A stretch of 63,758 nucleotides of DNA, the filler included, from Reclinomonas americana ATCC 50394 (taxonomy: Eukaryota): the NCBI GenBank assembly GCA_048213135.1. It is 4 parts of 2 records of this genome, joined end to end, with 100 filler letters (N's around TTAATTAATTAA, not from the genome) between each part and the next. Parts side by side here need not be neighbours in the genome. Positions count along the whole stretch, not along the records: positions 1 to 27,387 come from PS015030.1; 3 more parts are not named here. One strand, given 5' to 3'. A program made the position numbers and the translations under genes. Positions 10,910 to 48,264 of the stretch are shown piece by piece (position 1 is the stretch's first letter; every line of letters begins with the position of its first letter). The notes under the pieces are model-generated. The model searched no databases and had not been told where the DNA came from. It saw only the letters and a program-made list of their open reading frames with translations.

Positions 10910-13900
10910 CTCCCCCTCCCCCTCATCATCATGGGCGGCGTCCGCGCCGACGACACCACCCCACGCCTCCCCCGCACCATGTGCGAGTCACTGGCCCGCG
11001 GCCTCCACGCCTCCGCCTACGTCGAATTCACCTACATGCTGCACTACGAGCCCGACGGCTCCCTCGGCGCCACCAGCTTCGACGTGGAGCGAGCGCTGGT
11101 CGAGGCCCTGGCCGTCAGCTCCTCGCCTCTCACCCCGCTCTCCGCCACCTCGCCCATGACGCCGTCGCCGTTTTCATCGCTCGGTTCTGCCTCTGCTTTT
11201 GGCGCCTCCTTTGCGGCCGTCATGGGTGCCGCTGGTGCCGGCAGCAGTGTCGGCAGCGGCGTCACTGGCATGCATTCGCCGGTGAGCAACAGCAGCGGCA
11301 CTGCGTCGCCGGTGCTGACGCAGGTGGCGACGTTTGCTTCGTCGCCCGGCTCCGTGTCGAGCATGTCGCGCCAGCGTGTCACCATTCGCGACGAGCGCCA
11401 GGTTTCGCTCGATGCCCTGCCGCCGCCGCAGATGGGGGCCTCCATGTCCATGTCGGCCTCGACCAAGACCAAGCCGGTGGCCACTTCCACCACGACGGCA
11501 ACGGCGACTCCAGCGCCCACGGCGGCGGCGGCCGCGGCCCCCACGCCGGCGGTGTCGGTGGCCTCTCGGTCGAACTCGAGTGGCAAGAGCCTCCTGCATC
11601 ACGCGCAGTCGACTCCCGATTTGAACCACGCGGCGGCACAGGCGGCCAAAGCCGAGAGTGCTGCGGGTAGCAGCAGACAGGTGAGACAGTAGTGTTTGTT
11701 CCTTGCGGGCGTTGATGCTGACCGACGTCCACAGACAAACCCGCGACACACCTCCATTTCGTCGCAAATGTCGGACGAGAGCGAGATTGTGGTGCCTGAG
11801 GTATGGAAAGGAGCGCGATATGCACATGTCTCCTTCTGCAGTTGAATAATTTGTGGTTGCTGTGCAGGATCCCGAGTACGAGGTGGAGCAGGAGCAGGTC
11901 CGCACGCTGCAGGTGAGAGAAGTGGTGTGGGCCTCAGCAAGAAAGCATCGCGCGCTCACTTGTGTTCGTTTCTCAGGCCAACATTGTGGCTCACGGACAC
12001 GGCCAGCATCGTGGCGAGTACGTGGAGTTGGATGAGAGGTTTTTGCTTCTACTCAGTCGGTGATTGCGGGCGGTGCTGTCGTGCTGACTCTTGTTGATGT
12101 TCACAGCACTATTACGAAGGAGCGCTATCTGGGCGAGGGTGCGAATGGCAAAGTGTTCATGGGCAGGGTGAGTTATTCGTTGACTGGCGGACTTTGTACG
12201 TGGCTTCCTCTTTCGCTCTCTCTATTTCTCTTTTCTCTCTCTGCGTGTGCATGCGCGCAAGGCTGGTCCCGTTCTCGTTCCTGTGCGCTGCTGTGTGCCA
12301 TTCTTGCACCCTGTGGAACAATGTCTCTTGCTACATTTCTCCTCCCTTTTCCCCACTCTTCCCCCTTCTCTTCTCTTCCCCTTCTCTTCCCCTTCTCTCC
12401 CCCTTCAATTCCCCTTCTCTTCCCCTTCTCTNNNNNNNNNNNNNNNNNNNNTGCTGGTTATTTCCTCCCTCTTGACTCTGCTGTACGGCCAAGGCGGATG
12501 TACGGTACAGCAGCTTCCCCTTCCTCTTCCCCTTCTCTCCCTTCATCCCCTTCTATTCCCCTCTCTCTCCTCTCTCTCTCCCCTCTCTCCCCTTCTCCCC
12601 TCTTCCCCTTCTCTTCCCCTTTCTCCCCTTTCTCTCCCTTCTCTCCCCCCTTCTCCCCCCCTTCTCCTTCTCCCTCCTTGCCTCCTTCTCCTTCTCCCCC
12701 TTCTTTCCCTGTCTCCACTCACTTCGCCTCCCAGCTGTACGGCACCGCCGTCGCTCTGAAAGAACTGATGGTCAACGACCCTGCGGCACTCGAGCAGGAG
12801 CTCCGTGTGCTCTCGCTGGCGCGCCATCCCGGCACTGTGAGCCTTATTGGCGCCTGCATGCACAGCAAGCCGCAGCTGTCCATTATTGTCACCGAGTACG
12901 TCAGCGGCGGTGACCTGAAGCACTGGCTCTATCGTGGCCCGGGAGTTGCGTTGTGAGGGACAGTGAGTGGTGGCAGTGTTTGTGCGCAGAGAGCCAACAC
13001 GTGTTGCGTTGCAGGTCGTGGCCTCCATTCGTCGGCGACTGGAGATGTGCCATCAGATTGCAAGCACGATGGCGTATTTGGTGCGTATGTTGGAGATGAG
13101 ATTTTACACTCGTTTTGTTTCTGATGCTCAACTGCTGTCTCCATGCGCAGCATTCGTGAGTCACCATGCCGCTGGGAATGAAGGTTATGCTAGCACTCAC
13201 TTGTATCTGTGTGCGCAGTCTCGGCATCGTCCATCGTGATCTCAAGCCTGAGAATGGTTCGTTTGTGTCACCTTTGTCTTGCTGCTCTTCGCACGTGCTG
13301 ATTGTTTTCATGGCTTGCCACAGTTCTGGGTGATCCGCCAAAGGTCGGCTCGCCAGGCGCACGTCTGCCTCAATACTTGTCTCTCACTCACCTTTCTGCA
13401 GGTGGCCGATTTCGGTCTCGCGCGCTTCACCAACAAGGAGGGCGAGTCGTTGCATGAATTCGGAGGTACAGCCACACTCCTGCTCGTCTTCGCCTTTTCG
13501 ACTGTTGCTGATGTGCGCCACTGTTTTTGTTGCAGGAACCGTGTTTTAGTTGCGCTTCGTGTTGGCGTGCTTGGCGTGAAGAGTCACGTGAGTAACCCGT
13601 CGTTTGTCGTGCAGCATGTCGCCTGAGGTGGCTCGTGGCGAGTCGTACGATGAGAAGGTTTGCGTGGTGTGTATTTTCTGACATGGCATCAGCTTTCACT
13701 CATGATGCGGATGCTTGTAGTGCGACGTCTACTCGTTTGGGTTTGTTCAAGTCACCTCGTTCCATATGCATTTCATGATACGTGTCTGACTCAACATTTG
13801 CGCGTTTGCTGCTATCGATGCGCAGTGTCATGTAAGTCTTCGTCATCGTTCGTCGTGCTTTTGTTTGTTCCTGACTGTGGAAATTGCTGCACAGGATGTG

Positions 13901-16900
13901 CGGTGCGGCATGCATACCTTTGTTCAGCCCGCACCGCTCGACAGTGATCTGACACGCTTTCCTCTGCAGAAATCATGTCGCGAGAGCGTCCGTACAATGG
14001 AACAGGTGTGACGAATCAGGTTCGTCGATGACGCTTTCACTTTTGCATGTCGTTCTGCGTTCAGGGAGCTCTGCGTTCCGCAGCCTTTTACTCGAATCCC
14101 TTGCACCTTCTGTCTCTCTTTCTCTCTGCGCATGTGTGAAGCTGCCTCTGCATGTCTCTCCTCTCTCTCTCTCTCTCGCCTCCTCGAACTTGATCTGCCT
14201 CAGTCTGTGAGTCTTCCACTCGCTCACACTCTGTGTTTCCTCCTTCGATGCGTTTCTTTTCTCTCTTGATTGATGCTGGTTATTTCCCTCCCTCTTGACT
14301 CTCTTCATACTCTCTTCCTGTTCTTTGTCTGTTCTCCTCTCGTCACGTTCTTTCCTCTCCTTTCCACATCCTCTCCTCTCCGCATCCCTTCCTCTTCATC
14401 TCGTTCCCCAGCTCCCATCGTCNNNNNNNNNNNNNNNNNNNNNNNNNNNNNNNNNNNNNNNNNNNNNNNNNNNNNNNNNNNNNNNNNNNNNNNNNNNNNN
14501 NNNNNNNNNNNNNNNNNNNNNNNNNNNNNNNNNNNNNNNNNNNNNNNNNNNNNNNNNNNNNNNNNNNNNNNNNNNNNNNNNNNNNNNNNNNNNNNNNNNN
14601 NNNNNNNNNNNNNCTATGTCCTCTTCCGTTCCTTCGTATCCTCCTCCTCCTCCTCTCTCTCTCTCTCTCTTATCTTCTTCCACTCTCCTCTCTCTCTCTC
14701 CTTTGCCATCGTCCTCTCATCCTCTTTCGCTCGCAGTTCGGCCTCCTCTACAAGGTCGCTCGTGATGGAATCCGGCCGACCGTCTCCGCCACAACTCCTG
14801 CATCGGTCTGTGCGCGCCACCAGCATCATCAAGTCTCGCGCCTCCCACAAACTCACGTGACCTCTCCCTTCCCCCAGATCAAGAGCCTGATTGAGAGATG
14901 TTGGAGCGGCTCCTCCAAGCACGATAACCACCGACCGCCGTTCCGCAAGGTTGGTTGCCTGTTGTATGAACACCCGCTTCTCGGTTGTTGCCAATCTCCA
15001 CCTGCGGCAGATTGTCAAGGAGCTGCGCAAGATTCTCGACTCGGATCCGACGATCGACGGAGACACTGCTGCGGCGCCCCTGATACCGCTGCCGCAACGA
15101 ACTCCGTCCGACATTGCGATGCCGCCGCTGTTGGTGGATCGTGTCAAGGGCCTGCTGGTTGGCGGTGCAATCGGCTGTGTGCTGGGTCTGGCCACAGCGC
15201 AGCTGACTGCGGAGCAAGCGCGACAGGCGGTGCGTTGACATGCCTGGTGGGGAGGTGATGACGGTTGAGGCGCTGATGCCGTTTCTTTGCAGTGTGGTGA
15301 CGGCGTGTTGAGCTATCAAGCGGGTTGGCGGCGATTCAAGGAGGAGTTTCGTGTGGTTCCAGAGCTGCAGTGATGCATTTGTCTCACATATTCCTGCTGC
15401 GACAGAATGCAAAAAGGCATCCACTCGGGTCTTTGGCTCCTCGGTGACTGGACCGATGCGTACGATATTCAGCTGGTCGGGTTGCTGTCGTTTCGTAGCG
15501 CTGCCTTCTTTTACTCCTTGCAATCTCGGCTGTTTTGTTGACCACCTGTTTTTTGTTTCGACAGCCTGTTGAGCAAAGACGGCCAGGCGGTGGCGCAAGA
15601 CTTTGGACGACGGCTTCAGCACTGGATCTCGCACGGTACGTGATGTGTAGTGAGCGAGGCAGCTGGCGGTGGTTGACGTCTGTTGCTTCTGTCTGTGCAG
15701 GCTTCCCTGACCCACCTTTCAACGACAAGAAGTCGCCGGGAGCGGTGAGTACTGAGCAAAGAAGACCGGCGGTGCAGCTGCGTGTATCTCACTCGGCTGT
15801 TGCGATGCCAGGGGCGAACCATTACTGCGTGTGCCAATCATCCACTCTTTGGCACGGACAAGACGCACCTGGTTGGACTGCACATTGTTGCGTGGAAGAG
15901 CAAGAGAGAGGACGAGAGCTTTATCAAGTGAGAAAACAGTGTGTCCGGAAGCAAGCAAGCGAGGATGCAGAGAAGCAAGTTTTGCAGATGCATGACTCCA
16001 ACATGTGCTCACTCACACGTATTTGTTCTCGTGCAGTGGTCCGACCCTTTCAAGGTACATTTTGCGTTGTGTGTTCCGCGCTGTCTCATTCAGTTGTGTT
16101 TATCGACGCACTCACAGGGCGCTTGCCGCCGCACCACCAATGGCTCCTTCATGCGCATCTCCACCCTCGCCATTCCGTACTACGACGAGGTTGGTAATGT
16201 TCGGCTCCCCGCGTGACCACTGCGGTGCACTCACACTTTGTTATTATGCGGCAGTGGGAGGTGGTGCGCGATCAGACCATTCCGCTGTGCATGGCGACGC
16301 ACGCCGATCCGCGTGCCATTGCCGCCTGCATTGCACTGGTTTCGATTCTCTCGCAGACTCTGTGTGGCGAGCGCGACCCCAATGTCATGTGCGTTACGCG
16401 ATGGGATAGTGAGGGTAGAAAAGTCTGTAAATCCAGGTGTGCTCAATCGTGTGCCTGCACAGTTTCACCACGGCCATCGATCGTGCCGTGTTTGAGATGG
16501 AACAGTACATCAAGCAGGTTCGTTGATGGGAAGGGGTTGAAGAGGAAAAGAATCCCTGCTATTTTCAGAGACTCATCTTCCTTCTCCTCCCCTTCCCCCT
16601 TCGGTCTACTCCCTTCGGTCTTCCCCCTTCGGTCTTCCCCTTCGGTCTTCCCCTCTACGGTCTTCCCCTCTTCGGTCTTCCCCTCTTCGGTCTTCCCCCN
16701 NNNNNNNNNNNNNNNNNNNNNNNNNNNNNNNNNNNNNNNNNNNNNNNNNNNNNNNNNNNNNNGGTCTTCCCCCTTTGGTCTTCCCCCTTTGGTCTTCCCC
16801 CTTTGGTCTTCCCCCTTTGGTCTTCCCCCTTCAGTCTTCCCCCTTTGGTCTTCCTCCCTTGCTCTTCCCCCTTTGCTCTTCCCCCTTCGTCTTCCCCTTT

Positions 16901-17673
16901 TCCCCTTTCCCCTTCCGTCTTCCCCTTCCGCCCCTCTCACCCTCACTTCCCCTTGCCTCATAGCTTCCCGCCCTCATGACCACTCTCCTGGCGAGCCTGA
17001 GCGAGTTGCCGGAGGTGCACGCAGAGTACAAGGACGAGGCCGTGCAGCTGCGCGAGTCCTTCGAGTCCAACTTCCCCGAGGCACAGCTGCGATGCACGCG
17101 TGAAGTTCTCGTGCGCTATTGCACGGCCGAGCTCGCCGACTTGCACCTGGATGAGGTGAGTGCATGGAAAGAGAGGGAGAGAGAGAGAGGGAAATGAGAG
17201 GAGTGAGTGCTGACATGAAACTCGTCAGCCGGAAATCAATTTTGTGTTCAAGTCGCTGGGTGTGGCCATGTGGACGCTGCGGCGCCTGATTGGCCGTCGC
17301 GAGAGCCGAGCGGAGATGGGTCCTGAGTTCTTCCAGGACACTCTCATGCAAATCATTCGCTGCGGCGGCGACGCCGACGCGAACGGCCTCATTTCGGGCA
17401 CGGTGATGGGGTGCTTTATTGGCTACTCTGCACTGGTAATCATTGCAAGGCTCGTCTATTTTTCTCCTCTCGTTACTTACTCTCTCTACCGCCCAGCCTC
17501 GCGATTGGGTGGGCGATTTGCGGTTCGGTCGGTGGCTGGAGGAGCAGAGCGAGCGCATGGCGGAGCTGGCGCATCGCACATCGCGTGTGAACTCGCCCGC
17601 AACAGCGGCCGCAGCGTCGGCAGCAGCCTCAGAGGAGACTAGTGATGCAACTGCTGCGGCGGCGGCGGAGTGA
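10910..17673 (+). CDS. Multidomain protein: putative degenerate Rho/Ras-like C-terminal half, Ser/Ala-rich linker, TKL-type protein kinase, ADP-ribosylglycohydrolase (ARH/DraG) domain; about 30 exons
   Basis: Spliced kinase motifs GEGANG, VALKE, HRDLKPEN, DFG, GTVFYMSPE, DVYSFG, CW..RPPF. Exon 15011-15229 runs from the kinase end (IVKELRKIL) into DRVKGLLVGGAIGCVLG. Then GDWTDAYD, NGSFMR, THADPR, GGDADANG, PRDW; stop TGA 17671-17673. The true start is probably upstream of 10910. Confidence 0.85.
16595..16930 (+). repeat. Intronic minisatellite, unit of about 14-15 nt (ttcggtcttcccc / ttggtcttccccct)
   Basis: More than 12 visible copies flanking an N gap. Confidence 0.85.
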
Positions 17674-40800: not shown

Positions 40801-43800
40801 NNNNNNNNNNNNNNNNNNNNNNNNNNNNNNNNNNNNNNNNNNNNNNNNNNNNNNNNNNNNNNNNNNNNNNNNNNNNNNNNNNNNNNNNNNNNNNNNNNNN
40901 NNNNNNNNNNNNNNNNNNNNNNNNNNNNNNNNNNNNNNNNNNNNNNNNNNNNNNNNNNNNNNNNNNNNNNNNNNNNNNNNNNNNNNNNNNNNNNNNNNNN
41001 NNNNNNNNNNNNNNNNNNNNNNNNNNNNNNNNNNNNNNNNNNNNNNNNNNNGCACGGGCAATGTTAACCACGCCGAGTGAACCAGCGACTGCCGACGCGC
41101 TCCACCGAATGCTGTGCGCATCGACACCAACAATCAGTGATCCATGGAAACGCACGACAAGCACGAGACTCTCCATACAGACGCACCAGAGAGTGTAGGC
41201 GCCAGATGGAATGCTGGACGTGTCGAGCGTGGCTTGCATCAGCGATGCACTGGTGTACGTGCCCGTCACGGAAGCAGACGTTGCTTGTGCAACACTCTCC
41301 CGACACCCAAAGCTGAGAGCACCGCTGTCCGATCCAAACACATTGACAAACAGAGTGCCACTGATCGTGATCTGTGCCGTCGCTGAGGACCCAATCACAG
41401 CCGGCGACAGGCTGAATGATGGAATCGCAATGGAGATCAACGCCGCCCAGCTCGTGCACGCCGAAATCGGTCTGTGAGTGTGCACAGTGAGGATGAGCAA
41501 TGGTACTGCAGCAGCGCAGACAAACAACACAAACACAGTGCGCACCGCACGCAAAGCGTGTACGTTCCCACCGCCAGCGACGACGAATCAAACGTGAACG
41601 TCGAGCTGGTCGTCGATGGGTACGACGCTGTGATTGCCACTGACGATGAAGCCGCTGCGCACGTAGCGCCAGACGACAGTGCATACGCTTGCGAGTCGGA
41701 CGACAAGTTGGGCAACGACGTGCCGGTCACCGTCACGACCTCCGACGCACGTCGGAACAGCGCGAGCGGTGACACTTGCGTGACGGCAACTAAAAGAATG
41801 AAGGAGGCGCAACAAATCAGGAGACCACACCGAGCGGAAGAGATTGCGAGCAACGAGACCGCACCTGACGACTGCACAGACCCAGCATCATAATACGGTG
41901 ACGAAGACGACATGCGACCACACACTCGGTACGTGGTGGCCGGCATCAGCAACGATCCGTTGATGGTGGCAAGAACTTGCGTATTCGACACCACTGTCGC
42001 TGGGAGAGAGAAGGCCACTGTGAACCTGCAACACAGAATGTGAGACGAGCGGTGGAGCAGAAGATGCGAGAATCAATTGCACTTCTTTCTTTCTTTCTCT
42101 CTCTCTCACACACACTCTTTCTCTTCTCTTCCCGATCACCACTCACCCCGTGTTGCACGTCGTGGCACTCAGCACCACCGCTTGCGCATCCGCTCCCACA
42201 TTCTGCGCGCTGTCCGTGCGCGTCAGTGACAGGCACTGACCGGCAACTTGGAACACGTTGGCCGGAGTCGACGCCGTGAATGTGGCCTCCGCAGTGAAGT
42301 ATTGCACGGCACCCCACTGCGTCGTCAGACCAATGTTCGACACGGCGCGGAAGTAGTACACACTCCGCAGAGTCAAGCCGCTGATTGTCGCCGTGATCGG
42401 AACTGTGCCCGCCGCCGATACCGTTGCTGGCACTGCAGCCACTTTGGTCGCAGTCGGTGCAATGATACGGCGAACCACTTGATTCGTTTGGTCTGCACGT
42501 GCAAGAGAGATTGTTGAGACACAAAAATCACTTGACGAGATACCNNNNNNNNNNNNNNNNNNNNNNNNNNNNNNNNNNNNNNNNNNNNNNNNNNNNNNNN
42601 NNNNNNNNNNNNNNNNNNNNNNNNNNNNNNNNNNNNNNNNNNNNNNNNNNNNNNNNNNNNNNNNNNNNNNNNNNNNNNNNNNNNNNNNNNNNNNNNNNNN
42701 NNNNNNNNNNNNNNNNNNNNNNNNNNNNNNNNNNNNNNNNNNNNNNNNNNNNNNNNNNNNNNNNNNNNNNNNNNNNNNNNNNNNNNNNNNNNNNNNNNNN
42801 NNNNNNNNNNNNNNNNNNNNNNNNNNNNNNNNNNNNNNNNNNNNNNNNNNNNNNNNNNNNNNNNNNNNNNNNNNNNNNNNNNNNNNNNNNNNNNNNNNNN
42901 NNNNNNNNNNNNNNNNNNNNNNNNNNNNNNNNNNNNNNNNNNNNNNNNNNNNNNNNNNNNNNNNNNNNNNNNNNNNNNNNNNNNNNNNNNNNNNNNNNNN
43001 NNNNNNNNNNNNNNNNNNNNNNNNNNNNNNNNNNNNNNNNNNNNNNNNNNNNNNNNNNNNNNNNNNNNNNNNNNNNNNNNNNNNNNNNNNNNNNNNNNNN
43101 NNNNNNNNNNNNNNNNNNNNNNNNNNNNNNNNNNNNNNNNNNNNNNNNNNNNNNNNNNNNNNNNNNNNNNNNNNNNNNNNNNNNNNNNNNNNNNNNNNNN
43201 NNNNNNNNNNNNNNNNNNNNNNNNNNNNNNNNNNNNNNNNNNNNNNNNNNNNNNNNNNNNNNNNNNNNNNNNNNNNNNNNNNNNNNNNNNNNNNNNNNNN
43301 NNNNNNNNNNNNNNNNNNNNNNNNNNNNNNNNNNNNNNNNNNNNNNNNNNNNNNNNNNNNNNNNNNNNNNNNNNNNNNNNNNNNNNNNNNNNNNNNNNNN
43401 NNNNNNNNNNNNNNNNNNNNNNNNGACACGGCAAACGTGCAGGTACATACCACACACATACACAAATCCGCTGCTCGCATCGTATGTGATTGCGGTCTGC
43501 ACAGAGGGATGGTACAATGAGATCAGAGAGGCAGAGGTCTACGAAAGAGAGAGAGAGAGAGAAACAGACAGTACCGGATTGTTGAAGCGAGCCGAAGTCG
43601 TCGATCCATCCGTGAACCCATTGTCTCCAGCAATGCCAGCCAGAGTCGATGTCACACCAGCAGATGTGATCAGTCGAATCAAATGGTTGCTCGTCTGCCA
43701 GATGCACACACCACGTGTGAGGTCAGCATGCGCACAGATAACGGAGAGAAGAGCAGCCCCTCAAACCAAGCACGCAACATCAGCTACATACACATTGTAC

Positions 43801-46800
43801 GTCGCAACGTCCACAAAGACGCCTGCTGGCGAGCGAAACTTGGCCGTCCCTCGCGCACCGTCAGTGGACCCAAGACTCCCCTTCACACCAGCAAATGTGC
43901 TGACCAGATTTGTGCTGAAGTCGATCTGTCGAATGGCATGATTGCTACGGTCGGCGATGAACAGAAGCAGCCGAGTCGTGTCGTAGTAGAGGCCGTAAGG
44001 TCCATTGAAGCGAGCTGCTGTGCTGTTGCCATCCGCCGTGCCAGACACTCCCACAGCGCCGAATATGCGTGTCACCACGCCGGCGTACGTCACAGTGCTG
44101 CAGCGTGCACACGCGTCAGAGAAGCACGTGCCATGAATGACTGACAATATCGTGTGCACACCGAATCGTGTGATTGCCGGTGTCACTGACAAAGAGCACT
44201 TGGTTACCGGCGTCGATGCCGATACCTCCAGGACTTGTGAACGCTGCCGCAGTGCCCGTACCATCTGCACTACCTGGCGACGCAGGCTGTCCCGCAACAG
44301 TGGTGACAACACCGCCAGACGTGATCTGCCGGATAATGTGATTTCCCGTCTGCGAAATACCACGAGTCACAGATGTCAGTCGTCTTACAAGCGGCGCACA
44401 CCGTTGAGAGAGCGAAAAGGCAACGAACATCTGCCACATAGACATTGCCGGTGCTAGGATCCACGACCGCATCACGTGGGCTGCAGCGACGTGTGAGGTG
44501 CACTGACGTTCGATGCAAGGCATTGCGTGAGTGCCTGACTCACTTGTTGAAGCGAGACGCCGTGTTTGTGCCATCCAAGTAGCCACGAACGCCAACAAGG
44601 CCAGCAAACGCCGTCACCACAGCGCCAGTGGTCATGCGACGAATGACCAGGTTGCTGTGCAGCGAGGACAAGTCAGCACAATGCATACAGTCTACAAATA
44701 CAGAGGGAGAGAGGGCAAGAGTGGGGGGAACACCGAGGACACGGAAATGCTTCGCACCTCGTGTCAACCACATAGAACGTGGATGCACCGTCGAAAGCAA
44801 GGCCCTGTTTGTGTCCCACAATCAAAGTCAGCAAACGCACAGTGCAGACTACCAACGCATACTAAGAATCACACCTGCGGGTTCTGGAATCGTGCAGATG
44901 TACCGGTTCCGAGTGACGACCCCTGTGAAGCTGGCGAGCCGGCAAACACCGCCACACTTGACGAGAAGTTGACCACATTGGTGGTGTACTCGAAGCCAGT
45001 GGTCAGCGTGCCGAGACCAGTTGTGTCCACTGACCCACTCAACACGGCTGTGCTGTCGGTGATGCTGCTCACGCTCACTGTTGTCGTCTGTTGCGCAGCC
45101 ACCGACCGCACAGTGAAACCAAACACACTACTCGAAGCCGTGATGCCGGCACTAGTGGCCATTGCTTGCACAAAGTACGTGCTGTTCAACGGCAGTCCAG
45201 TCAGTGTTGCGGTGACCGTCACGGTTCCCGTGCCAGTGATTCCAGTCGGTGTCGCAGTGACCGTGTTGGACGTGGGTACCAGCACCTCGCGGATCTGATT
45301 GTTGAAACTGTGCGCGGAGGACACACAAGTGAGCGCAAGAAAAATGAGAGACACAAATGAATGGAGCAACGAGAAGAATGACTCACGTGTCTGCGATAAC
45401 GACGTTGCCGGTGCTATCCGTCGTCACACCAAATGGATAGTAAAAGCGACCACTTGCAATTGGGCCGTTGGTCGCCGCCGGATTAGTGGTACCGGTGTAA
45501 GAAGTCACGACGGCCCCCGGAACGGTGACACGCCGAATCTGATGATTGCCGGGGTCAGCCACGTACATCGCGTCATCAGTTGTCGTCAGTGCCAGGCCAA
45601 CTGGTCCCTGGAACCTCGCCGATGTACCAGTGGCATTGGTAGACCCGGCAGTGGTCGACCCGGCAAATGTCGTCACAACACCGGCCGACGTGATGGCGCG
45701 CAGCTGCCGATTGCCCGTATCGGCCACATACAACACGCTGCTCGGCTGGTGGAACACAACGCCAGAGGGCGCTGTATGGGACGAACGCGGTGAGTGACGG
45801 AGAACGGGAGACAGACGGAAGCAAATGACAACTCAACTGTTGAACCTGGCCGCCGTGCCAGTGGCATTTGTGGTGCCAGATACACCCGCACCACCCGCAA
45901 ACGTGGACACCGACAGCGTCGCAATATTGATCTTGCGAATCGTGTGCGACAAAGTATCTGCCACGTACAACGTAGTCACTGCGTCGTCAACTGCCACATC
46001 GCGTGGTCCATTGAAGCTGCCCGGTGTGCCGTCAGCCGTGCCTGGTGTGTCCGGTGTGCCAGCTATCGTGGTCACCGCGCCAGCCAACGTGATCTGCCGT
46101 CGTATGCGTGTGTCAGCAGGACGGCAAAACCCAATCAAGATCACAAGTGAACACACAACTCGACGAATGGTATGCGACCCCGAATCCGCCACATATATCA
46201 CATCATTTGCGTCGATGCAGATGCCTTGCGGACCGTTGAATCGCGCGCTGGTACCAACAGCATTGTCAGTGCTTCCAGGCGTGAGCGCCAGACCGGCGAA
46301 GGTGGTCACGGCACCCACGGAAGTCACTCGACGGATGGTGTGGTTTTGCGTCTGTAGACGGTGAAGAGAATCATGAGCCGATATGAGAGCGGACACTCGC
46401 ACAGGGTGGAGCGACGCAACGTCAGCCACGTATGCATTGCCGGAGGAATCACACGCCACATCCGTGGGGAAGTTGAAGCGCGCGGTGGTACCGGAGGCAT
46501 CAACTGCACCGGCATTCGAAATCTTGCCGGCGAGCGACGAGACGGTCAGCGTGGCCACATCAACCTTGCGAATGTTGTTGTTGCCCGAGTCGGCAACGTA
46601 CATATTGCCACTGCCGTCAAAGGTGATGCCGCGAGGTGTGTTGAAGCGAGCGCTAGTGCCGACGCCGTCTTGGAAGCCGAATGCCACGTTGGTTCCTGCC
46701 TCCCGCAAAATACGACAAGAAAGACACGAGGCATCATTCAGTACAGACATTGGTTTCCAGTGAGAAACTCCACCAACGTACCGAGAATAGTTGCGGTCGT

Positions 46801-48264
46801 GAGAGTGTTCGTGTCCAGAGTACGAATGGTCTGATTGCTCGATTCGCTATAGTACAGTACGCCATTGTACAGGCAGAAATTGGTGCCGCCATTCAGTCGT
46901 GCAGCGGTGCCGGTACCGTCGGTGGTGCCGCCAGTGCCCATGAGACCGAACACGGTGGTCACGACACCGGCCATTGTGACCTGTCGCGGAGATATGAGGC
47001 AACATCAGAACGAGGGTGGAGGGTGGGTGAGAGATATCATCGCATCTCACCTTGCGAACGACACGATTCGACACGTCCAGCACCCAAACCACGTTCTTGG
47101 CAGCGTCATATGCCACATCCCAAGGCTACAGCACATCCCAGTGAGTGAGCTCTTCCCAGAAAAAACACATCACCCTCCGTCTCCGGGGTGTACTCACAGC
47201 GTTGAAGAGCGCCGCACTGCCAGTACCGTCCGATTGGCCGGCTGTACCAGCTGTTCCTGCAAGCGTGGTGACCACAGCCGCGGGGGAGACCAATCGAATG
47301 GTGTTGCTGTCGGTCTGCATGAACGGGCGACAGGGTGTGAGCATGTGAGAGACGTCGACAAGAAGAACAAGACCACGCAACATCGGCCACGATCACACTG
47401 CCATCGACAGTGTATATGTCGAGGCCACTTGGGTTCTGTGCGAAGCAATGTAGAGTGAGAATTTGATGATGATCTTGAGCATTTGCGCTGCATCATCATA
47501 CCTGAAATCGAGCAGCCGTGCCCGTGCCGTCCACAGTGCCGGCGGTGCCAGCGAGACCAGCGACTGAAGTGACAACGGCCGACGTGGAGATTGAGCGGAT
47601 AGTCGAGTTGCCCGACTGCATGCACGAGAGGGGGAAAGAGGTGAGAAAGGAAGGGGAATGCGTGACGAGACACAGCGAATGACACAGCTCGAAAACACAT
47701 GCCGCGGATTGGAATAAGATGCACACATGCACACACGACATGTGTTGATTATCGCACGCAACATCGGCAACCCACAGAGTGCCACTCGCATCCACCACAA
47801 TGTCACGAGGACCACTGAACCGTGCCGCTGCATCACCATGACATGGGTCACAACACAGCTCACTGCGCAAGCACAGCGCGAGAGAGAAACGAACCGGTGC
47901 CTGTGCCATCGGTAGAACCGGCTGAGCTGCTGGTAGAGCCAGCGAATGTCGTCACCACGCCGGCGGCAGTCACTTGGCGGATGGAGTTGCTGAATCTGTG
48001 ACGTGAAAGAGAGATAGAGAGAGCTGCTTTCAGTATGACAGCGACGAGAGAGAGGGAGACAGAGAGAGAGAGACAGAGAGAGAGAGAGAAGCGTAACAAT
48101 GCAGTCTCACATATCTGCACACCACACACACACGTGTCCTTACAGAGAGAGAGAAAAGGCATACAAAGGCAGCCCACCAGCACGTTGATGCGCTCTTAAC
48201 GTTGTGAGGCCACAAAGAATGCAGTGAAGAGGCGGGACAGCGTAGAAGGGACGACGGACATCGA

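What the first reader, a model, noticed from the sequence alone, without database searches (positions are those of the whole stretch)
12107..17673. TKL kinase fused to an ADP-ribosylglycohydrolase (ARH/DraG) domain
Seen: hand-splicing gives a complete kinase, and one exon (15011-15229) encodes both the kinase's last helix and the first ARH helix (DRVKGLLVGGAIG). The fusion is therefore not an artefact of joining neighbouring genes. All later ARH blocks follow (WTD, NGSFMR, THADPR, GGDAD). Known: ARH/DraG enzymes bind or remove ADP-ribose and are usually stand-alone in eukaryotes. Inference: a signalling module coupling ADP-ribose or ADP-ribosylation to phosphorylation, possibly an immune or stress sensor. 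I do not know a characterised protein with this architecture. It is invisible in the ORF track because of microexons.
Basis: partly seen in the sequence, partly recalled or inferred. Interest (0 to 1): 0.88.

Follow-up and report, generated by a model that had tools for sequence, protein, structure and literature searches.

The report
Kinase fused to degenerate ADP-ribosylhydrolase domain
An intron-rich eukaryotic gene appears to encode one long protein that joins an intact-looking protein kinase to an ADP-ribose-hydrolase-type domain that has lost several residues needed for catalysis, so that domain more likely regulates than hydrolyses.

Summary
I built a 32-exon model on the + strand (10931-17673, 1015 codons). 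All 31 introns are GT-AG and 27 are 54-85 nt long. Exon 20 (15011-15229) is one open 73-codon frame. Its first nine codons continue the last kinase helix. Codons 40-72 match the start of an ARH profile (17.3 bits; 0 of 200 shuffles reach it). The spliced ARH part matches a profile of 30 eukaryotic ARH proteins over positions 10-345 of 348 (254.3 bits). Pfam PF03747 and PF07714 pass their cut-offs on single exons.

Three corrections apply.
- The gene starts about 1.2 kb upstream of the reported start.
- Four microexons of 5-8 nt are needed.
- Three of the seven magnesium-site residues that are critical in human ARH3 are alanine here (equivalents of E41, D78 and T317). The domain is therefore probably a pseudo-hydrolase.

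The kinase motifs are intact. No kinase was found in any of the 36 ARH relatives I scanned, and four literature searches found no such fusion. No transcript data could be obtained, so the splicing is inferred. I rate this a new domain combination of known families, of moderate interest.

The parts
10931..11680 (+). Exon 1: ATG and 250 codons of Ser/Thr/Ala/Pro-rich N-terminal region, starting Met-Gly-Gly
   Evidence: Open frame from ATG 10931 to donor gtgaga. GC3 is 0.836 in this frame against 0.61/0.66 at the other positions. No Pfam match.
11735..11800 (+). Exon 2 (66 nt)
   Evidence: cag|...|gtatgg, phase 0; preceding intron 54 nt.
11868..11912 (+). Exon 3 (45 nt)
   Evidence: gcag|...|gtgaga.
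11977..12038 (+). Exon 4 (62 nt); supplies the two bases that complete the first codon of exon 5
   Evidence: tcag|...|gttttt.
12107..12167 (+). Exon 5: kinase Gly-rich loop (GEGANGKV)
   Evidence: Reading; motif at 12132-12155.
12735..12944 (+). Exon 6: kinase N-lobe (VALK lysine, helix C Glu, hinge)
   Evidence: PF07714 E 3.3e-8, 33.6 bits; PF00069 20.9 bits. PDB hits are CSF1R, KIT, TNNI3K and Pto.
13015..13080 (+). Exon 7: helix E up to ...AYL
13151..13155 (+). Exon 8: 5-nt microexon (gives His-Ser before LGIVHRD)
   Evidence: gcag|CATTC|gtgagt with flanking introns of 70 and 63 nt. It restores the frame and the spacing before HRD.
13219..13256 (+). Exon 9: catalytic loop HRDLKPEN
   Evidence: Motif at 13232-13255.
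13324..13343 (+). Exon 10 (20 nt)
   Evidence: acag|...|gtcggc.
13402..13465 (+). Exon 11: DFG and activation segment
   Evidence: Motif at 13408-13425.
13536..13542 (+). Exon 12: 7-nt microexon (Gly-Thr-Val before MSPE)
   Evidence: gcag|GAACCGT|gtttta with flanking introns of 70 and 72 nt; needed for the frame.
13615..13657 (+). Exon 13: SPE (APE-type) motif
13721..13740 (+). Exon 14 (20 nt): DVYSFG
13826..13831 (+). Exon 15: 6-nt microexon
   Evidence: gcag|TGTCAT|gtaagt. Together with exon 16 it gives the four residues between SFG and Glu.
13895..13902 (+). Exon 16: 8-nt microexon
   Evidence: acag|GATGTGCG|gtgcgg.
13970..14019 (+). Exon 17 (50 nt)
   Evidence: Donor gttcgt at 14020 keeps phase 0. 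The next intron is 717 nt and holds a 191-N gap.
14737..14805 (+). Exon 18: kinase subdomain X-XI
14878..14949 (+). Exon 19: ...ERCW...RPPFRK (kinase C-lobe end)
   Evidence: No Pfam or PDB hit on its own.
15011..15229 (+). Exon 20, the fusion exon: last kinase helix (9 codons), 30-residue linker, then the first ARH helix with the degenerate Gly-Cys and Ala617 sites
   Evidence: 73 codons without a stop. ARH profile positions 9-41 align to exon residues 40-72 at 17.3 bits; 0 of 200 shuffles reach this.
15293..15345 (+). Exon 21 (donor ambiguous: 15345 preferred, 15369 or 15350 possible)
   Evidence: Enumeration of in-frame GT/AG pairs: 15345/15406 gives 254.3 bits and a 60-nt intron with a cag acceptor.
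15406..15489 (+). Exon 22: GDWTDAYD (the TDD motif with its second Asp replaced by Ala663, codon 15458-15460)
15565..15635 (+). Exon 23
   Evidence: Collinear with ARH homologues.
15701..15744 (+). Exon 24
15812..15871 (+). Exon 25
16037..16054 (+). Exon 26 (18 nt)
16118..16189 (+). Exon 27: NGSFMR
16255..16388 (+). Exon 28: THADPR (Thr-His motif kept); donor ambiguous (16388 preferred, 16361 possible)
   Evidence: PF03747 E 0.012 on 16255-16359. Donor 16388 gtgcgt gives 250.8 bits and a 74-nt intron.
16463..16517 (+). Exon 29
   Evidence: The next intron is 446 nt and holds a 63-N gap.
16964..17155 (+). Exon 30: helical insert of this ARH subfamily
   Evidence: Aligned to P0069, P0002 and P0045.
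17229..17435 (+). Exon 31: GGDADANG (Asp-x-Asp kept; Thr replaced by Ala939, codon 17379-17381)
   Evidence: PF03747 E 1.5e-8, 35.1 bits; DraG alignment.
17497..17673 (+). Exon 32: end of the ARH domain, Ala-rich tail, stop TGA at 17671-17673

Best explanation
One gene (10931-17673, + strand, 32 exons) encodes a protein of about 1015 residues. Its parts are:
- a low-complexity N-terminal region that starts Met-Gly-Gly;
- a TK/TKL-like Ser/Thr protein kinase with every catalytic motif in place (about residues 309-563);
- a 30-residue linker;
- a full-length ARH-fold domain (595-982) derived from a eukaryotic family of stand-alone ADP-ribosylhydrolases.

The ARH domain keeps the fold, the Thr-His motif and four of the seven magnesium-site residues. 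The equivalents of ARH3 E41, D78 and T317 are alanine. I therefore read it as a pseudo-hydrolase that serves the kinase as a regulatory, ligand-binding or targeting module, not as an enzyme that removes ADP-ribose.

Shown: the continuous frame, homology of both domains, and the substitutions.
Inferred: the splicing itself, kinase activity, loss of hydrolase activity, and any regulatory coupling between the two domains.
For: - 31 of 31 introns are GT-AG with Y at acceptor -3, and codon-position GC shows strong periodicity.
- The junction exon is one open frame in gap-free sequence.
- The ARH profile matches at 254.3 bits over positions 10-345 of 348. The match to the Rhodelphis homologue P0069 is a single domain of 152.1 bits. 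P0091 scores 161.4 bits.
- Pfam matches above cut-off are found on single exons.
- The kinase motifs GEGANGKV, VALK, HRDLKPEN, DFG and SPE, and the ...CW...RP... end, are all present with normal spacing.
- At 47 profile columns that are at least 80% conserved, the model agrees at 34. Six of the 13 differences fall in the three metal-site motifs.
- Among 36 homologues covering all seven sites, 20 read E-T-D-D-D-D-T and 9 more differ only by Ser/Thr swaps. This protein reads A-T-D-A-D-D-A.
- The ARH3 metal ligands, and the loss of activity in D77A, D78A, D314A and D316A, come from passages of PMC8141533 (Table 2, Fig. 3 legend) and PMC9738213 (Fig. 1 legend).
Against: - There is no transcript evidence. 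Splicing, including four microexons of 5-8 nt, rests on motif restoration and splice consensus alone.
- Only exon 6 of the kinase has a database match. The other kinase exons gave nothing on their own, and a whole-domain Pfam scan of the spliced product was not possible.
- Ala at the T317-equivalent position occurs in 10 of 90 relatives, so that change alone may be tolerated.
- Each metal site keeps most of its ligands, so residual or altered activity cannot be excluded.
- No orthologue was found, so conservation of the fusion is unknown.
- Three introns hold N gaps that could hide small in-frame exons.
Confidence: 0.6

Rival explanations
1. The protein is a true bifunctional enzyme. The ARH domain still hydrolyses an ADP-ribose conjugate or another ribose conjugate, perhaps with one metal ion or a different catalytic residue, and so couples de-ADP-ribosylation to phosphorylation.
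For: The Thr-His motif, the D77, D314 and D316 equivalents, the NG..MR motif and the whole fold are retained. Ala at the T317 position is seen in 10 of 90 relatives. The ARH review notes that lack of activity in ARH2 could reflect untested substrates (PMC9738213, conclusions passage).
Against: The E41 and D78 equivalents are Ala. These columns are Glu in 32 of 36 and Asp in 33 of 40 relatives. D78A impairs ARH3 (PMC8141533). The near-invariant Asp of the Gly-Asp motif (35 of 36) is Cys.
Confidence: 0.2
2. The fusion is an artefact of gene modelling. Kinase and ARH are made as separate products, for instance an ARH-only transcript that starts at the in-frame ATG at 15119-15121, six codons before the ARH domain, and a kinase transcript that ends by intron retention.
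For: An in-frame Met lies just upstream of the ARH start. Stand-alone relatives carry N-terminal extensions of about 100 residues (P0091). No RNA data are available.
Against: The kinase frame has no stop before the ARH start. Retaining intron 20 would still add the first ARH helix before a stop at 15236-15238 (ORF 14891-15238). The gap between the last kinase helix and the ARH start is only 30 codons inside one exon. There is no room for a promoter other than inside coding sequence.
Confidence: 0.1
3. It is a young, lineage-specific chimeric gene that is drifting. The ARH part is a decaying passenger without function.
For: No orthologue or second copy was found. The active-site residues are lost.
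Against: Thirteen ARH exons keep frame and splice sites. The ARH part has GC3 of 0.729, like the kinase part at 0.702. 34 of 47 conserved columns are kept, and the losses concentrate at the metal site rather than being spread along the domain.
Confidence: 0.1

Closest known systems
Eukaryotic stand-alone ARH proteins of the GDWTDDTD / THADPR / GGDADTNG type (P0091 from a marine transcriptome/metagenome cluster, P0069 Rhodelphis limneticus, P0045 Lacrimia lanifica, P0093 Mucochytrium quahogii, P0040 Entamoeba invadens)
   Same: Homologous over the whole ARH domain, with collinear motifs and the same helical insert. Sources are given.
   Different: They are 350-570 residues long and carry ARH alone, or zf-UBP plus ARH in P0069; none has a kinase. 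Most keep the full metal site. Best identity to exon 31 is 45-53%.
Human ARH3 (ADPRHL2/ADPRS) and bacterial DraG
   Same: Same Pfam family and fold. The subfamily profile hits DraG (E 1e-35) and ARH3 (E about 1e-24) in the PDB.
   Different: Those are active binuclear-metal hydrolases. Here the E41, D78 and T317 equivalents are Ala (PMC9738213, PMC8141533 passages).
ARH2 / ADPRHL1, the vertebrate cardiac ARH pseudoenzyme
   Same: An ARH-fold protein that differs at the critical magnesium-site motifs and shows no hydrolase activity (PMC9738213, section 5 passage). An abstract seen only in a search listing links it to the ROCK kinase pathway (PMC10601310).
   Different: It is stand-alone, belongs to the ARH1 branch and is not fused to a kinase. 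The resemblance is functional analogy, not orthology.
TK/TKL-like protein kinases of protists with unusual accessory domains
   Same: The kinase N-lobe scores better with PF07714 than with PF00069. Its best solved relatives are CSF1R/KIT, TNNI3K and Pto. It has a Ser/Thr-type catalytic loop.
   Different: I found no described kinase with an ARH accessory domain. Group assignment was not tested on the whole domain.
mt-SAF23 of trypanosome mitoribosome assembly intermediates (PDB 6sga, 9hny)
   Same: An ARH-fold protein used in a non-hydrolase, structural role. It is hit by the subfamily profile at E about 7e-9.
   Different: It is a distant relative in a different cellular context with no kinase. 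Its structural role is recalled, not read here.

Membership tests
ADP-ribosylglycohydrolase superfamily (Pfam PF03747) | Pfam match at or above the gathering score | tested here: met
   Exon 31 alone scores 35.1 bits against a cut-off of 26.2, profile 232-284. Exon 28 scores 15.8 bits at profile 146-173, collinear.
ADP-ribosylglycohydrolase superfamily (Pfam PF03747) | Full-length domain, N-terminal Gly-rich helix to C-terminal helix, in collinear order | tested here: met
   A profile of 30 homologues matches at positions 10-345 of 348, 254.3 bits, residues 595-982. Exon 20 supplies positions 9-41.
Catalytically active ARH hydrolases (ARH1, ARH3, DraG type) | Seven magnesium-site residues (ARH3 E41, T76, D77, D78, D314, D316, T317) | tested here: not met
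   The model reads A617, T661, D662, A663, D936, D938, A939, so 4 of 7 are kept. Residue roles come from PMC9738213 and PMC8141533 passages. The mapping to ARH3 is by motif (TDDT, DxDT), not by a printed alignment to ARH3.
Catalytically active ARH hydrolases (ARH1, ARH3, DraG type) | Conserved Thr-His motif | tested here: met
   Thr and His are kept; these columns are T in 58 of 59 and H in 58 of 59 relatives. The motif's role is from a PMC9503650 passage.
Catalytically active ARH hydrolases (ARH1, ARH3, DraG type) | Hydrolysis of an ADP-ribose conjugate | not testable with these tools
   Needs a biochemical assay.
Eukaryotic protein kinase superfamily (PF07714 / PF00069) | Pfam match at or above the gathering score | tested here: met
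   PF07714 scores 33.6 bits against a cut-off of 23.1 on exon 6 only. PF00069 scores 20.9 bits, below its cut-off of 31.7. Other kinase exons are too short to score.
Eukaryotic protein kinase superfamily (PF07714 / PF00069) | Catalytic motifs: Gly-rich loop, VAIK Lys, helix C Glu, HRD Asp, catalytic Asn, DFG, APE | tested here: met
   Read directly from the spliced translation: GEGANGKV, VALK, EQELRVL, HRDLKPEN, DFG, SPE. Which residues are required is recalled knowledge.
TKL kinase group | Group-level classification of the whole kinase domain | tested here: inconclusive
   Only the N-lobe exon could be searched. PF07714 scores above PF00069, and PDB neighbours mix TK, TKL and Pto. No group classifier was run.
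Kinase-ARH fusion as a known architecture | Other proteins carrying both PF00069/PF07714 and PF03747 | tested here: inconclusive
   0 of 36 ARH relatives scanned carry a kinase. The search for longer proteins gave one hit, EAD1-AAA_16-TPR-ARH. InterPro and EukProt architecture tables were not available.

The most novel reading that the evidence does not exclude
The catalytically dead ARH domain keeps its nucleotide pocket and acts as a receptor for ADP-ribose or a derivative such as O-acetyl-ADP-ribose or a protein-linked ADP-ribose. Binding would switch or localise the attached, possibly N-myristoylated, kinase. That would be a one-protein transducer from NAD-derived signals to phosphorylation in a eukaryote, a mechanism not described so far.
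Probability: 0.15. Interest if true: 0.8.

Novelty: new variant of a known kind. Interest (0 to 1): 0.45.

Why it matters
ARH-fold proteins are known as erasers of ADP-ribosylation and, in a few cases, as pseudoenzymes of unclear function. A kinase covalently tied to a degenerate ARH domain would offer a testable case of what such a pseudoenzyme does. It may read ADP-ribose-type ligands or dock onto ADP-ribosylated partners to direct phosphorylation.

The case is limited by three things. It rests on a single genomic locus, it has no orthologue, and it has no transcript support. Unusual kinase accessory domains are also common in protists (recalled). The locus further shows how microexons of 5-8 nt can hide a complete kinase from ORF-based annotation.

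Tried and rejected
- Whole genome of the window: none is held, so paralogues could not be sought. tblastn of the model against the window found no second copy; the only outside HSP had E 0.37.
- RNA evidence: no RNA holder was listed for 14737-16560, so read laying could not be used.
- The search for homologous proteins with the fusion exon, with exon 31, and with alignment A1 in 'longer' mode: nothing, nothing, and one unrelated STAND-type ARH protein. The tool itself calls such blanks weak evidence.
- Representatives search with exon 31: 90 hits, none at E 1e-10 or better, so no orthologue.
- Metagenome scan with exon 31: one AT-rich contig with an intron-less ARH-only gene, 24% identical, no kinase.
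- Pfam and PDB searches on short kinase exons, on 14737-14949 read through its 72-nt stop-free intron, and on the fusion exon alone gave no significant family hit.
- ESM Atlas with the fusion exon gave only weak leads, best 0.84, with a PF03747 cluster at 0.83.
- Earlier findings of this scan: nothing on this genome or sequence.
- Alternative splice choices rejected or left open. A 36-nt intron 15370-15405 and an aag acceptor at 15416 score 250.8 and 254.2 bits, against 254.3 for the 60-nt cag solution. Donor 16361 scores 244.7 against 250.8 for 16388. I considered, from reading the sequence, a single 136-nt GC-AG intron in place of the 5-nt microexon. I rejected it because it loses the His-Ser before the catalytic loop and fits neither the intron length nor the GT rule of the other 31 introns.
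- Structure or complex prediction of the spliced protein was not attempted, because those tools take only unspliced window translations.
- Supplementary files of the papers were not consulted.
Full report
**What is there.** The window is a GC-rich (56.8%), gap-ridden eukaryotic scaffold with 26 runs of N. Between 10931 and 17673 on the + strand I could build one gene model of 32 exons and 1015 codons.
- All 31 introns begin GT and end AG. The base before AG is C in 29 and T in 2.
- In the final model 27 of 31 introns are 54-85 nt long. The other four are 165, 446, 567 and 717 nt. The three longest hold CT-rich low-complexity repeats and N gaps.
- GC content at codon positions 1/2/3 is 0.626/0.504/0.752, against 0.53 in the introns. 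The same periodicity holds separately for exon 1, the kinase part and the ARH part.

**The kinase.** Exon 6 (12735-12944) matches PF07714 at E 3.3e-8 (33.6 bits, cut-off 23.1) and PF00069 at 20.9 bits. Its best solved relatives are CSF1R and KIT, then TNNI3K and Pto.

The other kinase exons are 5 to 72 nt long and give no database hit on their own. The spliced translation nevertheless reads the full set of motifs with ordinary spacing: GEGANGKV, VALK, a helix C glutamate, HRDLKPEN, DFG, SPE, DVYSFG, and a ...CW...RPPFRK end followed by IVKELRKIL.

Four microexons of 5, 7, 6 and 8 nt are required. Each lies between a YAG and a GT and is flanked by introns of 63-85 nt. Each restores both the frame and a conserved spacing: His-Ser before the catalytic loop, Gly-Thr before the SPE motif, and four residues between SFG and Glu. 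That these motifs define an active kinase is recalled knowledge. I could not run a whole-domain profile, because the tools take only unspliced window translations.

**The junction.** Exon 20 (15011-15229) is a 73-codon frame without a stop.
- Its first nine codons continue the helix begun in exon 19.
- A 30-residue linker follows.
- Residues 40-72 align to positions 9-41 of a profile built from 30 ARH homologues, scoring 17.3 bits. None of 200 shuffles of the exon exceeds 1.8 bits.

On its own the exon gives no significant Pfam or PDB hit, which fits the degenerate N-terminal motif described below. The junction lies in gap-free sequence (14614-16699), so scaffolding did not make it. The kinase frame has no stop before the ARH start. 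Even retention of intron 20 would add the first ARH helix before the stop at 15236-15238.

**The ARH domain.** PF03747 matches exon 31 (17229-17435) at E 1.5e-8 (35.1 bits, cut-off 26.2, profile 232-284). It also matches 16255-16359 at E 0.012 (profile 146-173), in collinear order.

An exhaustive search of 1.84 billion representative proteins with exon 31 gave 90 hits. The best had E 3.6e-8 and none reached 1e-10, so no orthologue is on record. The spliced protein aligns with these relatives over the whole domain:
- 152.1 bits in one stretch with P0069 from Rhodelphis;
- 161.4 bits with P0091;
- 254.3 bits against the profile of 30 relatives, positions 10-345 of 348, residues 595-982.

The relatives are eukaryotic: Rhodelphis, a diplonemid, a labyrinthulomycete, a chytrid, Entamoeba, Polysphondylium, a mussel and marine transcriptomes. 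The profile also finds MJ1187, DraG and ARH3 among solved structures.

**The active site is degenerate.** At 47 profile columns that are at least 80% conserved among the relatives, this protein agrees at 34. Six of the 13 differences fall in the three metal-site motifs.
- The near-invariant Asp of the N-terminal Gly-Asp motif (35 of 36) is Cys610.
- The following Glu (32 of 36) is Ala617.
- The second Asp of the Thr-Asp-Asp motif (33 of 40) is Ala663, and the next Thr (36 of 40) is Tyr.
- The Thr after Asp-x-Asp (76 of 90; Ala in 10) is Ala939.

In human ARH3 the corresponding residues E41, T76, D77, D78, D314, D316 and T317 are described as critical for ADP-ribose binding and activity (PMC9738213, Fig. 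1 legend, passage seen). T76, D77, D78 and D316 hold one magnesium ion and D314, D316 and T317 hold the other. D77A, D78A, D314A and D316A all impair hydrolysis (PMC8141533, Table 2 and Fig. 3 legend).

This protein therefore keeps four of the seven residues. I mapped it to ARH3 by motif, not by a printed alignment. Among 36 relatives that cover all seven sites, 20 carry the full set, 9 differ only by Ser/Thr swaps and 7 are degenerate in various ways. Loss of the site thus recurs in this family. The Thr-His motif, said to act with the metal site in catalysis (PMC9503650 passage), is kept.

**Is the architecture known?** All 22 of the 90 hits longer than 372 residues were scanned against Pfam, together with 10 shorter hits, three cluster members and one protein from another search. 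That makes 36 proteins, and none carries a kinase domain. One has zf-UBP plus ARH, one has two ARH domains, and one has EAD1-AAA_16-TPR-ARH. The 58 unscanned hits are all 357 residues or shorter, too short to hold both domains, though some could be fragments.

Four full-text searches found no paper describing a kinase-ARH fusion. This census is narrow. It covers only close relatives of this ARH subfamily, and I had no access to InterPro architecture tables.

**How it most likely works.** The kinase looks competent. The ARH domain looks like a folded pseudo-hydrolase. The most economical reading is that the ARH domain regulates or targets the kinase. It might bind ADP-ribose or a related ligand, or dock on a partner. 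This step is inference.

A precedent for a non-catalytic ARH is vertebrate ARH2/ADPRHL1, which differs at the same motifs and has shown no activity (PMC9738213, section 5 passage). An abstract seen only in a search listing links ARH2/ADPRHL1 to the ROCK kinase pathway (PMC10601310).

Three rivals remain, and none can be settled without RNA and biochemistry:
- residual or altered hydrolase activity;
- separate products from an internal ATG at 15119-15121;
- a drifting young chimera.

**Corrections to the finding.**
- The gene starts at 10931, not 12107. Exon 5 begins in phase 2 and needs upstream sequence.
- About 308 N-terminal residues without any Pfam match precede the kinase.
- Two donor sites (exons 21 and 28) are ambiguous, but every option stays in frame.
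- Neighbouring genes encode DUF5054, trefoil plus EGF, NHL-repeat and Frag1/DRAM proteins. None relates to ADP-ribosylation.

**Verdict.** The fusion is probably real and not described in what I could search, but the ARH half is unlikely to remove ADP-ribose. It is a new domain combination of two known families. Interest is moderate (0.45), because it rests on one locus, has no transcript, has no orthologue, and belongs to a kind of organism in which odd kinase fusions are common.

Noticed in passing
13151-13155, 13536-13542, 13826-13831, 13895-13902: Four microexons of 5, 7, 6 and 8 nt lie within 800 bases of one kinase domain. Each is flanked by introns of 63-85 nt. An extreme case of exon fragmentation that hides the kinase from ORF-based annotation.
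   Followed up: partly
12168-12734, 14020-14736, 16518-16963: The three longest introns (567, 717 and 446 nt) are filled with CT-rich, near-tandem low-complexity repeats and each holds an assembly gap. The other introns are almost uniformly 54-85 nt.
   Followed up: no
10931-10951: The predicted protein starts Met-Gly-Gly-Val-Arg-Ala-Asp. This fits the recalled N-myristoylation pattern (Gly at position 2, small residue at position 6), which would place the kinase at a membrane.
   Followed up: no
15119-15121: An in-frame ATG lies six codons before the ARH domain start. It could serve an ARH-only isoform if an internal transcription start exists.
   Followed up: no
proteins P0018, P0036, P0038, P0039, P0064, P0082, P0085: Seven of 36 full-coverage relatives of this ARH subfamily also lack one or more metal-site residues. 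Pseudo-hydrolases therefore seem to arise repeatedly in this eukaryotic family.
   Followed up: partly
proteins P0069 and P0095: Other ARH fusions were seen: zf-UBP plus ARH in Rhodelphis limneticus, and EAD1-AAA_16-TPR-ARH, a STAND-type architecture, in a metagenome protein.
   Followed up: no
3417-4316 (-), 7325-7753 (-), 43764-46846 (-), 61378-61857 (+): Neighbouring open frames match DUF5054, trefoil plus teneurin-like EGF, NHL repeats and Frag1/DRAM/Sfk1. None is linked to ADP-ribose metabolism.
   Followed up: partly
9973-10500: The region upstream of the gene is made of simple repeats: GTCG-type units, GA runs and CA runs. It follows a 553-N gap, so the promoter region is poorly resolved.
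   Followed up: no
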